64,000 bases of DNA, taken from assembly GCF_016026235.1 (NCBI RefSeq), contig NZ_CP065613.1. One strand, given 5' to 3'. The translations under genes were made by a program, and so were the position numbers. This DNA is from Escherichia coli (GTDB lineage: Bacteria; Pseudomonadota; Gammaproteobacteria; Enterobacterales; Enterobacteriaceae). Positions 36,716-40,950 of the stretch are shown in pieces. Each line of letters starts with the position of its first letter. Within the stretch, counting starts at the first letter, position 1. The notes below the pieces were generated by a model. It was not told the DNA's origin, did no database searches, and worked only from the letters and a program-made list of their open reading frames with translations.

Positions 36716-37582
36716 CTAAGCGAGGTTCTGGTTTTCAAATTGTTCCGGACTGAGGCCGCCACACCAACTGTGCCGCCGCCACCGATTGTAATCACATTCG
36801 ATATAATTAAACACCGTTGCCCGCATTATTTCCCGGCTGATAAAGTGTTCTCCATGGATACATTCCACTTTCAGCGAATGAAAGAAGCTTTCCACGCAGG
36901 CATTATCGTAGCAGCAACCTTTTGCGCTCATACTTCCACGCAGATTATGCCGCTTCAGTTGCGCCTGATAATCTGCTGAACAGTACTGGCCTCCACGGTC
37001 CGTGTGAACGATAACGTTCCGGGGCCTCTTACGCCGCCACAGCGCCATCTGCAGGGCATCGCAGGCCAGTTGCGCCGTCATGCGTGGCGACATTGACCAG
37101 CCAATAACGGCACGTGACCACAGGTCAATGACCACTGCCAGATACAGCCAGCCTTCATCTGTACGTAAGTACGTGATGTCTCCTGCCCACTTCTGGTTCG
37201 GGCCACTGGCGTAAAAATCCTGCTCCAACAGATTTTCTGACACAGGCAGGCCGTGTGCGCGGTAGCTGACCGGGCTGAACTTCCGGGAGGCCTTTGCCCT
37301 CAGTCCCTGACGGCGCAGGCTTGCCGCCACGGTTTTTACGTTAAAGGGGTAACCCTGAGCACGCAGTTCATCCGTCAGGCGTGGGGCACCGTAACGCTGT
37401 TTTGACCGGGTAAAAGCCGCGAGGACAACGCTGTCGCAGTGTTGGCGGAACTGCTGACGCGTGCTTATCCTTGTCCGCCGCTGACACCACGTATACCAGC
37501 CGCTGCGGGCCACCCGGAGCACGCGGCACATTGCTTTGATGCTGAACTCAGCCTGATGTTTTTCAATAAAGACATACTTCAT
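36716..37582 (-). CDS. insF: IS3 transposase OrfB (DDE domain)
   Basis: 288-aa [25 protein letters not shown]... Confidence 0.95.
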
Positions 37583-37878
37583 TTCAGGCGCTTCGCGAAG
37601 TATGTCGCGGCCTTTTGGAGGATAGCCAGCTCTTCATCCCGTTCTGCCAGCTGGCGTTTGAGACGTGCAATCTCGGTAGACATCTCCAGTTCACGTTCAG
37701 AAGACGTCTGCTGATTTTGCTGTTTACTGCGCCAGTTGTAGAGCTGTGATTCATACAGGCTGAGTTCACGGGCTGCGGCAGTAACACCGATGCGTTCAGC
37801 AAGCTTCAGGGCTTCACTGCGAAATTCAGGCGAATGCTGTTTACGGGGTTTTTTACTGGTTGATACTGTTTTTGTCAT
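37579..37878 (-). CDS. insE: IS3 OrfA (HTH)
   Basis: 99 aa from ATG 37876-37878 ([19 protein letters not shown]...). Confidence 0.93.
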
Positions 37879-37943
37879 GTGAGTCACCTCTGACTGAGAG
37901 TTTACTCACTTAGCCGCGTGTCCACTATTGCTGGGTAAGATCA

Positions 37944-39172: not shown

Positions 39173-39244
39173 GTGTGTGCAATATACGAAAAAAAAGCCC
39201 GTACTTTCGTACGGGCTCTTCTTTAAATATGGCGGTGAGGGGGG
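39173..39244. repeat. 72-bp direct repeat, copy 1 (serX terminator plus the last 15 nt of the tRNA, detached from the tRNA body)
   Basis: 71/72 identical to 40806-40877, with one mismatch (39214 G vs 40847 A). Contains the hairpin AGCCCGTAC-TTTC-GTACGGGCT. Confidence 0.9.
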
Positions 39245-39269
39245 TGCCCCTATTAAGTTGTCAAGCATG

Positions 39270-40466
39270 TTATGACCCCTGCGGGGTATAAAAAGTCCCG
39301 TCGCGCATCATGGCGAACAGAACGTCGCAGCGTCGTCTCGCCAGGGCGATAAGCGCCTGATTGTGTCGTTTTCCCTGACTCATTTTGCGGGTGTAGTAAG
39401 CCCTGGAGAGCGGATCCCTGAGCGCGGCGAAGGCCGACAGGAACAACGCCCGTTTGAGAGCTTTATTACCCCGTCGCGAGGGATGCTCACCGCGTATTGA
39501 CGAGCCGGATCGCCGAGTTACCGGCGCAAGGCCAGCATAAGCAGCGAGATGTGCGGCAGAGGCGAAGGCGCGGCAGGCGACCTCGGTGAGGAGTCTGGCT
39601 GCGGTCCTGACACCGACTCCGGGCATACTGGTCAGGACCGGGTAAAGAGGGTGAGCAAGAACTCGCTGTTCTACCTCAAGCGCCACCTCGTCTCTTTGCT
39701 TACGCAGCGTGATGAGCTGGAGTGCCAGACGTGGCAGTACTACGGCAGCGGCATTCGTGCCGGGAACGACGACGGTTTGTTCGGCCAGTGCCTGAGCTAT
39801 GTCTGCTGCAAGGCGTTTACCCAGACGAGGCGCAAGTTTGCAGAGCTGGGCTGCCAGCTTCTTCTCACCCAGCGAAGCGAGTTTTTCTGGTGAGGGATAT
39901 CGCTGGAGAAGATCGAGTACCGCCGGGTGCTCAAGTCTCGGACCGAGAACGCGCTCCAGTGCCGGATGTATCTGGGTCAGAAGGCCGCGGATACGGTTGC
40001 TGGCCTGCGTTGTCTGTGCGGCAAGATCATCATCGAAGCCGCAGAGCATGGAGAGTTCGGCGATTTGCTCGTCAGCCAGTTTCAGCGTGCGTAGCGCGTG
40101 AGGCAGGGTACGGGCAGCTTCGGCAATGATGGCAGCGTCACGAGCATCAGTTTTAGCTTCACCGGCGTGTAAGTCGGCTATGCGGCGCATGGCCAGTCCA
40201 GGGAGGTATCCGACAAGGACTCCTTCTGAGCGGGCAACGGCGACAGGTAACGCACCGATGGTAGCTGGCTGATCAACAACCAGCAGTATCTGACCATGTT
40301 GTTTCAGGTCAGATATTAGCGACCTGAGTTTGTTTTCGTCGTTGGGTAATGCTTTATCGAACAGGCGTTTACCTGAACGATTAATGGCAACAGCGTGATG
40401 CGTATCTTTACCGACATCAACGCCGATAAAGACCTGGACGGATTCGTAATCGCTGGATTCGGTCAT
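39270..40466 (-). CDS. IS110-family (DEDD / Piv-like) transposase-recombinase
   Basis: 398 aa. N-terminal FIGVDVGKDTHH and AKTDARDAAIIAE motifs. C-terminal LTSMPGVGVRTAARLL...YAGLAPVTRRSGSS...RRGNKALKRAL (Transposase_20-like). Confidence 0.9.
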   Translation of the reverse strand: MTESSDYESVQVFIGVDVGKDTHHAVAINRSGKRLFDKALPNDENKLRSLISDLKQHGQILLVVDQPATIGALPVAVARSEGVLVGYLPGLAMRRIADLHAGEAKTDARDAAIIAEAARTLPHALRTLKLADEQIAELSMLCGFDDDLAAQTTQASNRIRGLLTQIHPALERVLGPRLEHPAVLDLLQRYPSPEKLASLGEKKLAAQLCKLAPRLGKRLAADIAQALAEQTVVVPGTNAAAVVLPRLALQLITLRKQRDEVALEVEQRVLAHPLYPVLTSMPGVGVRTAARLLTEVACRAFASAAHLAAYAGLAPVTRRSGSSIRGEHPSRRGNKALKRALFLSAFAALRDPLSRAYYTRKMSQGKRHNQALIALARRRCDVLFAMMRDGTFYTPQGS

Positions 40467-40805
40467 TCTGTCTCCCTTGTATATGGGTTAACCAGATAAC
40501 CACGGGGAGCAGGTACCGGCATCCACGTTACAGACGGTCCCGGCAAAAGTGCCTGACCTGACCCCTATTAGCGGTTACCAGCGCCCCACCAGACCCGGTG
40601 ACATCACCCCCCGGATCATGGACGACTGGGGGCAGTAATCATGCCGGGTCTGGCTGGCTAACACCCCATTATAAGGGGTACGAATAAAGTAACGGGGATT
40701 GACTCGCTTCGCTCGCCCTGCGGGCAGCCCGCTCACTGCGTTCACGGTCTGTCCAACTGGCTGTCGCCAGTTGTCGAACCCCGGTCGGGGCTTCTCATCC
40801 CCCCA
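40467..40805 (-). ncRNA. Candidate bridge-RNA-encoding 5' non-coding region of the IS110-family element
   Basis: 339 bp with no ORF directly upstream of the recombinase. Perfect 10-bp stem CCAGACCCGG/CCGGGTCTGG (40589/40644). Further hairpins at 40663-40677, 40754-40773 and 40779-40790. Motifs matching both element termini. No expression data are available. Confidence 0.4.
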
Positions 40806-40877
40806 GTGTGTGCAATATACGAAAAAAAAGCCCGTACTTTCGTACGAGCTCTTCTTTAAATATGGCGGTGAGGGGGG
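40806..40877. repeat. 72-bp direct repeat, copy 2 (contiguous with intact serX)
   Basis: See copy 1. This copy continues into the full tRNA body. Confidence 0.9.
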
Positions 40878-40950
40878 GATTCGAACCCCCGATACGTTGC
40901 CGTATACACACTTTCCAGGCGTGCTCCTTCAGCCACTCGGACACCTCACC
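40863..40950 (-). tRNA. serX: tRNA-Ser (anticodon GGA)
   Basis: The reverse strand reads GGTGAGGTGTCCGAGTGGCTGAAGGAGCACGCCTGGAAAGTGTGTATACGGCAACGTATCGGGGGTTCGAATCCCCCCCTCACCGCCA. 88 nt, long variable arm, encoded CCA. Confidence 0.97.

What the first reader, a model, noticed from the sequence alone, without database searches (positions are those of the whole stretch)
40467..40805. Long structured 5' non-coding region of the IS110-family element, a bridge-RNA candidate with motifs matching both element termini
The recombinase gene has 339 bp of ORF-free sequence upstream and only 25 bp downstream. This is the layout of the IS110 subgroup, whose members (for example IS621) encode a bridge RNA in this end. 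The region contains a perfect 10-bp stem, CCAGACCCGG/CCGGGTCTGG (40589-40598 / 40644-40653), enclosing a 45-nt internal region. Further hairpins lie at 40663-40677 (ACCCC/GGGGT), 40754-40773 (CAACTGG/CCAGTTG) and 40779-40790. The 9-mer CCCCTATTA occurs both at the distal terminus of the element (39247-39255) and inside this region (40562-40570). CATCACCCCCC (40602-40612, inside the 10-bp stem's loop) resembles the proximal terminus CATCCCCCCA (40796-40805). Terminus-matching guide-like segments inside loops are what a donor-binding loop of a bridge RNA would look like.
Basis: inference. Interest (0 to 1): 0.65.

Follow-up and report, generated by a model that had tools for sequence, protein, structure and literature searches.

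The report
Bridge RNA gene of ISEc20
The non-coding stretch upstream of the recombinase gene of the known E. coli insertion sequence ISEc20 encodes the guide ("bridge") RNA typical of its family; this was already predicted in print, and the outer third of the flagged region is host DNA, not part of the element.

Summary
The flagged region lies upstream of the recombinase gene of ISEc20, a catalogued IS110-group element. It sits between ycdU and tRNA-Ser (serX) in an E. coli genome.

- **Boundary.** The element ends at 40693, not 40805.
- **Structure.** The true 227-nt left end folds into a 5' hairpin and two stem-loops with internal loops. Stems keep pairing through compensatory changes in 59 distinct left-end sequences.
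- **First loop.** Its two guides match the poly-C insertion sites and change together with the flanks in orthologs that use other targets.
- **Second loop.** It also holds GUAACGUGG, complementary to the left-end terminus.
- **Novelty.** Durrant et al. 2024 (Suppl. Table 5) already list a left-end bridge RNA for the ISSfl4/ISEc20 cluster, so the finding is correct in essence, mis-bounded, and not new.
- **Possibly new by-product.** The donor core (AC) differs from the target core (CC or TC). Natural junctions always look like top-strand products.

The parts
39244..40693 (-). ISEc20 element, 1450 bp, read on the minus strand as GTTAC...AATAGGGGCAC. The ends are uncertain by 1-3 nt because both flanks are C-runs.
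   Evidence: megablast to other ISEc20 copies; empty site L001; 15 distinct insertion sites share these ends
39270..40466 (-). Recombinase gene, 398 aa (DEDD/RuvC-like domain plus Tnp domain with the catalytic Ser in the SGSS motif)
   Evidence: Pfam PF01548 6.9e-49 and PF02371 7.1e-22; aligns to IS621 transposase 8wt6, E 1.2e-14, with SGSS aligned; RefSeq name 'IS110-like element ISEc20 family transposase'
40508..40680 (-). Predicted bridge RNA, about 173 nt. Both ends are inferred, not mapped.
   Evidence: MFE -83 kcal/mol, z -3.0; three-hairpin architecture conserved in 59 distinct left-end sequences; the 5' end is placed from the junction promoter
40662..40680 (-). 5' stem-loop (UACCCC UUAUAAU GGGGUG)
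   Evidence: 5 of 6 pairs show changes on both sides in orthologs (helix 1)
40583..40658 (-). Target-binding stem-loop.
   Evidence: helix 3: 98% of cells paired, 7 of 15 pairs with compensatory changes
40628..40636 (-). Left target guide ACUGCCCCC. [quoted passage not shown]
   Evidence: Left flanks end in CCCC at 15 of 15 ISEc20 sites. Orthologs L076 (CGUUCCUC, flank CGTTCCTC), L070 and L088 covary. Permutation: 75 of 20000 shuffles reach the observed match.
40604..40614 (-). Right target guide CCGGGGG (40608-40614), then GU (40606-40607) complementary to the donor core AC, then GA (40604-40605) in the handshake position
   Evidence: Right flanks begin CCCCC. Variant guides UGAGA, AGGGC and CACCUU have flanks TCTCA, GCCCT and AAGGTG; GGGGU (L041) has flank ACCCC. 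Permutation: 0 of 20000. Layout taken from IS621.
40516..40582 (-). Donor-binding stem-loop
   Evidence: upper stem (helix 8) 85% paired with compensatory changes; basal stem weaker at 72%
40561..40569 (-). Left donor guide AAUAGGGGU.
   Evidence: Identical to right-end terminus AATAGGGGC with a U-G wobble. Variants GGGAC, AGAGGC and GGAGC occur in guide and terminus together. Permutation: 0 of 20000.
40523..40531 (-). Right donor guide GUAAC (40527-40531), GU (40525-40526, donor core AC), GG (40523-40524, handshake to the target's ..CC)
   Evidence: 8 of the 9 positions invariant in the 59 left ends and the ninth nearly so. Reverse complement CCACGTTAC equals right end CAC joined to left end GTTAC. 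A natural deletion junction lies at the pseudo-site CCGC|GTTACC in mdtA.
39244..39254 (-). Left donor arm AATAGGGGC (39246-39254) plus donor core AC (39244-39245) at the right end
40689..40693 (-). Right donor arm GTTAC, the first bases of the left end
39259..39264 (-). -35 box TTGACA in the right end; half of a promoter completed only when the two ends are joined
   Evidence: TTGAC[A/G/T] sits 17-18 nt from TAC[T/C]NN at the reconstructed end-to-end junction in 49 of 49 distinct orthologs; principle from Durrant 2024
40686..40691 (-). -10 box TACTTT in the left end
40694..40697 (-). Host target, left half (..AATCCCC on the minus strand), inside the RtT-type repeat
39239..39243 (-). Host target, right half (CCCCC TCACCGCCA on the minus strand), the tRNA-3'-end-like tail of the RtT-type repeat

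Best explanation
The 227-nt left end of ISEc20 (minus strand, 40467-40693) encodes a bridge RNA of about 175 nt. It has the IS621 architecture: a 5' hairpin, a target-binding stem-loop and a donor-binding stem-loop.

**Proposed guide assignments** (each is the sequence shown in the window; its pairing role is inferred by analogy with IS621)
- In the same loop, CCGGGGG would pair with the top strand to the right. The element is therefore aimed at runs of about 9-11 C.
- In the second loop, AAUAGGGGU would pair with the right-end terminus AATAGGGGC.
- In the same loop, GUAAC-GU-GG would pair with the left-end terminus GTTAC, the donor core AC, and the last CC of the target arm after exchange.

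**Proposed cycle**
- Joining of the two ends (..GGGGCAC|GTTAC..) would rebuild a sigma-70 promoter that drives the RNA and the recombinase.
- The recombinase-RNA complex would then insert the element after the second core base of the target.

**Shown versus inferred**
- Shown here: the true boundaries, the conserved structure, and guide/flank and guide/terminus covariation.
- Inferred by analogy with IS621: transcription, binding of the RNA by the recombinase, and strand-level chemistry.
For: **Family membership and boundaries**
- The element is ISEc20, with IS110-family recombinase domains and homology to IS621 and ISCro4 structures.
- Boundaries come from other copies and from an empty site.

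**Published prediction**
- Durrant 2024 Suppl. Table 5 lists 'ISSfl4 | LE | IS110 | ISEc20;ISSfl4', meaning a bridge RNA was detected in the left end.

**Structure**
- 84% of cells are paired, against 38-50% for slid controls.
- 203 cells carry double-sided changes, against 82 in shuffles (0 of 500 reach the observed value).
- The target-loop stem is 98% paired, with 7 of 15 pairs compensatory.

**Guide covariation (permutation tests)**

| Guide vs. partner | Matches observed | Shuffle mean | Shuffles reaching observed |
|---|---|---|---|
| Right target guide vs. right flank | 222 of 235 | 192 | 0 of 20000 |
| Left donor guide vs. right-end terminus | 234 of 248 | 217 | 0 of 20000 |
| Left target guide vs. 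left flank | 352 of 567 | 334 | 75 of 20000 |

- Three reprogrammed guide variants match their flanks exactly in the test: UGAGA with TCTCA (three distinct loci), AGGGC with GCCCT, CACCUU with AAGGTG.
- GGGGU (L041) also matches its short flank ACCCC; that flank was too short to enter the test.

**Target**
- The 15 distinct ISEc20 sites read CCCC|IS|CCCCC.

**Promoter**
- The junction promoter is present in 49 of 49 distinct orthologs.

**Guide layout**
- It fits the IS621 scheme: guide, then core complement, then handshake positions.
Against: - No expression or binding data are available.
- Rfam 15 has no matching family, so no independent covariance-model hit was obtained.
- The published bridge-RNA models were not available to me.
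- The right donor guide and its DNA partner are essentially invariant, so that pairing has no covariation support.
- The basal stem of the donor loop is only 72% paired in my alignment.
- The left donor guide does not cover the core, unlike in IS621.
- Donor and target cores differ.
- The net change in C-run length between occupied and empty sites is inconsistent between sites.
Confidence: 0.9

Rival explanations
1. The whole 339 bp (40467-40805) is the element's left end. On this view the RtT-like hairpins and the C-run at 40796-40805 are part of the RNA and of the terminus.
For: There is no ORF across the region. A 73-bp direct repeat (39173-39245 / 40806-40878) brackets it and looks like an insertion duplication.
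Against: - Other ISEc20 copies stop matching at about 40697.
- The empty site L001 contains 40698-40805 and both 73-bp repeats without the element.
- Fifteen distinct insertion sites (L002-L016 and the window) share GTTAC as the first bases.
- RefSeq annotates the segment as RtT sRNA.
Confidence: 0.01
2. The internal copies of terminal sequence (CCCCTATTA, GTAAC) are DNA-level sub-terminal binding sites for the recombinase. The left end would then be only a 5' UTR and promoter, with no guide RNA.
For: - Two copies of a protein-binding site would also evolve in concert, which could mimic the covariation between the left donor guide and the terminus.
- The right donor guide is invariant.
Against: - This view does not explain why internal segments covary with host flanks, which are not part of the element. 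One does so in the same sense and the other in antisense, exactly as the two IS621 target guides do.
- It does not explain the compensatory changes in the stems.
- IS621 and ISCro4 relatives are shown experimentally to use such an RNA.
Confidence: 0.04
3. The mechanism is strictly IS621-like at the core. Donor and target share a CC dinucleotide that ends up at both junctions. The element is then GTTAC...GGGGCAC plus one CC, giving a net gain of 3 C at every insertion.
For: The window site has 4+6 = 10 C, against 7 C in most empty sites. That is exactly +3.
Against: - The yecD site gains only 1 C: CCCCC|T CCCCC becomes CCCCC[IS]C T CCCCC.
- The focB, yfdF and hemW sites gain none.
- Empty alleles with 8 and 9 C exist at the window's site.
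- The core-complement positions of both right-hand guides read GU (= AC), not GG.
- Two extra bases would stretch the promoter spacer to 19-20 nt.
- The mdtA deletion junction is CAC|GTTACC, with no CC between.
Confidence: 0.15

Closest known systems
IS621 bridge RNA and recombinase (Durrant et al. 2024, PMC11208160; Hiraizumi et al. 2024, PMC11208158)
   Same: - Same IS110 subgroup layout: long left end, short right end.
- Recombinase with DEDD and Tnp/Ser domains.
- RNA with a 5' hairpin followed by target-binding and donor-binding internal loops.
[quoted passage not shown]
- Handshake positions lie 3' of the right-hand guides.
- The promoter is split between the right and left ends.
   Different: - The recombinase is 398 aa against 326, and only the Tnp domain aligns significantly (E 1e-14).
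- The target is a poly-C run, not a REP sequence.
- The two target guides are complementary to each other.
- The left donor guide stops at the core instead of covering it.
- The donor core AC differs from the target core CC or TC, whereas IS621 uses CT in both.
ISSfl4 / ISBma3 / IS110 clade (ISfinder names; Durrant 2024 Suppl. Tables 1 and 5)
   Same: - ISEc20 is clustered with ISSfl4 and is about 80% identical in protein to ISBma3-type elements.
- All share the same left-end RNA, the same GTTAC...GGGGCAC ends and the same poly-C targets.
   Different: Nothing essential differs. This is the element's own clade. The published record gives only 'LE' for the location of the RNA, with no guides.
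IS1111-group seekRNA / bridge RNA
   Same: Same recombinase family and the same principle of an RNA that pairs with both target and donor.
   Different: In IS1111 elements the RNA lies in the right end, downstream of the gene, and the ends carry 7-17 bp sub-terminal inverted repeats. ISEc20 has the RNA upstream; no search for sub-terminal inverted repeats was run on it.
RtT RNA repeats downstream of tRNA genes (Rfam RF00391)
   Same: Positions 40698-40805, plus the tRNA-3'-end-like tail at 39230-39243, are a copy of this host repeat.
   Different: It is the insertion target, not part of the mobile element or of its RNA.

Membership tests
IS110 family (IS110 subgroup) | Recombinase with an N-terminal DEDD (RuvC-like) domain and a C-terminal Tnp domain carrying the catalytic serine | tested here: met
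   PF01548 and PF02371. Alignment to IS621 8wt6 puts RRSGSS on ESGSS and KTDARDA on KTDTVDA. The second acidic residue aligns as Asp instead of Glu, in a weak N-terminal alignment.
IS110 family (IS110 subgroup) | Long non-coding left end upstream of the gene and a very short right end | tested here: met
   Left end 227 bp (40467-40693), right end 26 bp (39244-39269), after correcting the boundary
Bridge RNA (IS621 type) | [quoted passage not shown] | tested here: met
   fold; covariation; slid controls 38-50% paired against 84%
Bridge RNA (IS621 type) | The first internal loop pairs with the target. The 5' side has the sense of the left flank and the 3' side is antisense to the right flank. 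Both covary with the flanks. | tested here: met
Bridge RNA (IS621 type) | The second internal loop pairs with the element's joined ends | tested here: met
   The left donor guide covaries with the right-end terminus. The right donor guide is complementary to the left-end terminus but essentially invariant. The natural pseudo-site junction in mdtA supports it.
Bridge RNA (IS621 type) | One core dinucleotide shared by donor and target and covered by all four guides | tested here: not met
   The guides read CC (left target guide) but GU, i.e. AC (right target and right donor guides). The left donor guide stops before the core. Junctions are CC or TC on the left and AC on the right in 57 of 61 distinct sites.
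Bridge RNA (IS621 type) | Promoter rebuilt across the joined ends | tested here: met
   Sequence level only: TTGAC[A/G/T], 17-18 nt, then TAC[T/C]NN in 49 of 49 distinct orthologs. No promoter-like site was found inside the integrated left end.
Bridge RNA (IS621 type) | The RNA is expressed, is bound by the recombinase and is required for recombination | not testable with these tools
   No expression or biochemical data are available here.
Bridge RNA (IS621 type) | Hit to a curated or published covariance model | tested here: inconclusive
   Rfam 15 gives no hit in 40505-40693 on the minus strand, but it appears to hold no bridge-RNA family. Durrant's own models did score the ISSfl4/ISEc20 cluster as 'LE'.

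The most novel reading that the evidence does not exclude
In this clade the donor core (AC, carried at the right end) differs at its first base from the target core (CC or TC, specified by the left target guide).

- Among 61 distinct natural insertion sites from many genera, 57 carry the target core at the left junction and the donor core at the right junction. None shows the reverse pattern.
- At the one site whose empty allele is not a length-variable uninterrupted C-run and whose right flank is intact (yecD), no target base is duplicated.
- This is what transfer of the top strand alone, followed by replication, would give. Exchange of both strands across a 2-nt core would give something else.
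- If this reading is right, the clade carries a built-in natural strand marker. That marker bears on the current dispute between double-strand exchange and top-strand copy-and-paste transposition of IS110 elements.
Probability: 0.35. Interest if true: 0.55.

Novelty: already known. Interest (0 to 1): 0.3.

Why it matters
The element is catalogued, and a left-end bridge RNA for its cluster is already listed in the supplement of the founding paper.

What the follow-up adds:
- An explicit guide map for a large, cross-phylum clade (ISEc20, ISSfl4, ISBma3, IS110 proper).
- The clade's poly-C target rule, which explains insertions into C-runs inside genes such as focB, yecD and hemW.
- A natural donor/target core mismatch that could be used to test whether integration transfers one strand or two.

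Tried and rejected
- **Rfam 15 scan at E <= 10.** It found only tRNA-Ser and sub-threshold hits such as RtT, sX4, MicC and leader families. None covers the 5' hairpin or the two guide loops.
- **The 73-bp direct repeat as a target duplication or an att site.** I rejected this because both copies are in the empty site.
- **A 3-nt overlap, a 1-nt overlap, and a shared CC core with duplication.** None fits all the occupied/empty pairs.
- **Pairing between the two target guides (GCCCCC with GGGGGU in the MFE fold) as a real stem.** I rejected this because it is lost in L056 and follows the target in the L070 type.
- **RNAalifold's pairing of the RNA 5' GUUAC with GUAAC.** I read it as a by-product of guide/donor complementarity, since the predicted transcript starts downstream of GUUAC.
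- **Literature searches for ISEc20, ISSfl4 and ISBma3.** They gave no description of guides or target rule.
- **A covariance model of my own.** I did not build one, because it would match the window by construction.

Full report
**1. Where we are**

The window is an E. coli chromosome segment carrying IS3, ycdU, tRNA-Ser (serX) and ghrA. The ORF 39270-40466 on the minus strand (398 aa) has both IS110-family domains: PF01548 at 6.9e-49 and PF02371 at 7.1e-22. RefSeq names identical copies 'IS110-like element ISEc20 family transposase'. Its C-terminal domain aligns to the solved IS621 and ISCro4 recombinases at E 1e-14 and 3e-12. The serine motif (RRSGSS against ESGSS) and the KTDxxDA acidic motif line up.

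**2. Check of the observation**

These features are as described:
- The 10-bp perfect stem (40589-40598 / 40644-40653) and the hairpin around 40663-40678 are present.
- The two copies of CCCCTATTA are real. About 0.18 copies are expected per window, and 0 of 100 shuffles gave two.

The extent is not as described:
- Other ISEc20 copies match the window only from about 39239 to 40697.
- An E. coli genome without the element (L001) reads ...GGCGGTGA GGGGGGG ATTGACTCGC... straight through.
- Positions 40698-40805 are therefore a host RtT-type repeat, annotated as 'RtT sRNA' with a sub-threshold Rfam RtT match.
- The hairpins at 40754-40773 and 40779-40790 and the supposed terminus CATCCCCCCA belong to that repeat.
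- The 73-bp direct repeat flanking the element (39173-39245 / 40806-40878) is also native. It is the tRNA-Ser 3' end plus terminator, duplicated as part of the repeat unit.
- The real left end is 40467-40693 (227 nt) and the right end is 26 bp.

**3. Structure**

On the minus strand the left end folds into three parts:
- a 5' hairpin at 40662-40680;
- a second long stem-loop at 40516-40582.

The fold has z = -3.0 for 40508-40680. I collected 80 loci with orthologs of 68-100% protein identity from Enterobacteria, Burkholderiales and many Actinobacteria, and aligned 59 distinct left ends.

On that alignment the structure is 84% paired, against 38-50% when partners are slid by 1-3 columns. It carries 203 cells with changes on both sides, against 82 in shuffles (0 of 500). 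The first long stem is 98% paired, and 7 of its 15 pairs change on both sides. The basal stem of the second loop is weaker, at 72%.

This is the architecture that Durrant et al. describe for IS110-group bridge RNAs: a 5' stem-loop, then two stem-loops with internal loops, the first variable and the second conserved.

**4. Guides**

Fifteen distinct ISEc20 insertion sites show, in recombinase orientation...CCCC | GTTAC...AATAGGGGCAC | CCCCC.... I mapped the loops using the IS621 rules. The 5' side of a loop pairs with the bottom strand. The 3' side pairs with the top strand and is followed by the core complement and by two 'handshake' bases that pair with the other DNA after exchange.

| Loop | Guide (window coordinates) | Pairs with |
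|---|---|---|
| Target | ACUGCCC-CC (40628-40636) | left target arm plus core CC |
| Target | CCGGGGG-GU-GA (40604-40614) | right target arm CCCCCGG, donor core AC, last bases of the donor arm |
| Donor | GUAAC-GU-GG (40523-40531) | left-end terminus GTTAC, donor core AC, target ..CC |

**5.

Most orthologs share the poly-C guides and poly-C flanks, but several are reprogrammed:

| Locus | Guide | Matching flank |
|---|---|---|
| L070, L076, L077, L088 | right target guide UGAGA | right flank TCTCA |
| L076 | left target guide ..CGUUCCUC | left flank CGTTCCTC |
| L092 | right target guide AGGGC | right flank GCCCT |
| L041 | right target guide GGGGU | right flank ACCCC |
| L056 | right target guide CACCUU | right flank AAGGTG |

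The left donor guide variants GGGAC, AGAGGC and GGAGC occur together with the same variant in the right-end terminus.

Permutation of partners among loci gives these results:
- Right target guide against right flank: 222 of 235 matches, 192 expected, 0 of 20000 shuffles as high.
- Left donor guide against terminus: 234 of 248 matches, 217 expected, 0 of 20000.
- Left target guide against left flank: 352 of 567 matches, 334 expected, 75 of 20000.

The right donor guide and its partner are essentially invariant, so they give no covariation. One natural event supports that pairing, however. In E. coli ECMA0423 (L015) the right end of ISEc20 is joined to an internal site of mdtA..CCGC|GTTACCTCATCGG. 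This matches the reverse complement of the guide (CCACGTTAC) at 8 of 9 positions. About 1.2 kb (the ibs toxin genes and the 5' end of mdtA) is deleted relative to strain E2865, where the original target reads GGTTT CCCCC T CCCCC TGG.

**6. Promoter**

Joining the right end (..CAC) directly to the left end (GTTAC..) gives TTGAC[A/G/T], a 17-18 nt spacer, then TAC[T/C]NN in 49 of 49 distinct orthologs. This matches the junction promoter known for the family, and it places the RNA 5' end at about 40680, at the foot of the 5' hairpin. In the integrated copy no promoter-like site lies in the left end. The only one found nearby is the serX promoter, which is separated from the element by the serX terminator.

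**7. What does not fit the IS621 template**

In IS621 one dinucleotide (CT) is shared by donor and target and is covered by all four guides. Here three things differ:
- The left target guide ends in CC (UC in the L070 type).
- Both right-hand guides read GU at the core position, which corresponds to AC.
- The left donor guide stops just before AC.

Junctions carry CC or TC on the left and AC on the right at 57 of 61 distinct sites. The remaining combinations (left/right) are CC/CC at 2 sites, CC/AA at 1 and AC/AC at 1. The reverse pattern never occurs.

Occupied and empty sites compare as follows.

| Site | Empty | Occupied | Net change |
|---|---|---|---|
| yecD | TG CCCCC T CCCCC G | TG CCCCC [GTTAC...GGGGCAC] T CCCCC G | no duplication |
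| Window (serX RtT) | 7, 8 or 9 C depending on the allele | 9 C plus the element | +2, +1 or 0 |
| focB | CGCCCC T CCCCCC TTC | CGCCCC [IS] CCCCC TTC | 'TC' lost |

The long runs at yfdF and hemW vary in length between strains and are uninformative.

The simplest reading is that AC travels with the element and the insertion adds no target duplication. That is the outcome expected if only top-strand information is transmitted, as recent preprints propose for other IS110 elements. Three alternatives remain open:
- a 1-nt crossover at the shared C;
- biased mismatch repair;
- homopolymer slippage after insertion.

I could not separate these, and the focB junction stays unexplained.

**8. Comparison with what is known**

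Durrant et al. 2024 ran their covariance models over all ISfinder IS110 elements. Their Supplementary Table 5 lists 'ISSfl4 | LE | IS110 | ISEc20;ISSfl4'. The existence and location of this RNA are therefore already on record. I found no paper giving its guides, its poly-C target rule or the core mismatch. Rfam 15 has no family that matches it.

**9. Verdict**

This is a real bridge-RNA gene of a known element. It is already known at the level of the claim made. Interest is modest and rests on the side observation about the cores.

Noticed in passing
window 39173-39245 and 40806-40878; 40698-40805: The serX downstream region is a tandem RtT-type repeat. Each unit holds the last 15 nt of tRNA-Ser, the terminator and an RtT body of about 108 nt. 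ISEc20 sits in the G/C-run at the tRNA-like tail of one unit. Empty alleles of that run have 7, 8 or 9 G in different E. coli strains.
   Followed up: partly
L015 (E. coli ECMA0423) against L100 and L101: The ISEc20 right end is joined to an internal mdtA site, CCGC|GTTACC, that mimics the element's own left end. About 1.2 kb (ibs toxin genes plus the mdtA 5' end) is missing. This looks like a natural deletion guided by the donor-binding loop.
   Followed up: yes
L007 and L010 (focB) against L093: At the focB insertion the bases 'TC' of the empty site (CGCCCC T CCCCCC) are missing from the right junction. No simple conservative recombination model explains this.
   Followed up: partly
L056, L041, L092, L070, L076, L077, L088: These orthologs have reprogrammed target guides for non-poly-C targets such as CGTTCCTC|TCTCA and ..ATCCC|AAGGTG. 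They show that the clade's target loop is naturally reprogrammable.
   Followed up: partly
L032 and L058 (Burkholderia): In these copies the 5' half of the left end, including the left target guide, is replaced by unrelated sequence. The right target guide and the donor loop remain. They may be truncated or rearranged elements.
   Followed up: no
L078 (Arthrobacter sp. 260), L066: The G-run of the right target guide is expanded to about 13 G in L078. In L066 the C-run at the right flank is at least 31 C long. The homopolymer guide and the homopolymer target are both prone to slippage.
   Followed up: no
window 36716-37887: An IS3-family element (two overlapping minus-strand ORFs of 102 and 288 aa) lies just upstream of ycdU, as I recall for E. 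coli K-12 (not checked here).
   Followed up: no
window 40575-40745 (minus strand): A 56-aa GTG ORF spans the bridge-RNA region and the host repeat. It crosses the element boundary and is almost certainly spurious.
   Followed up: no
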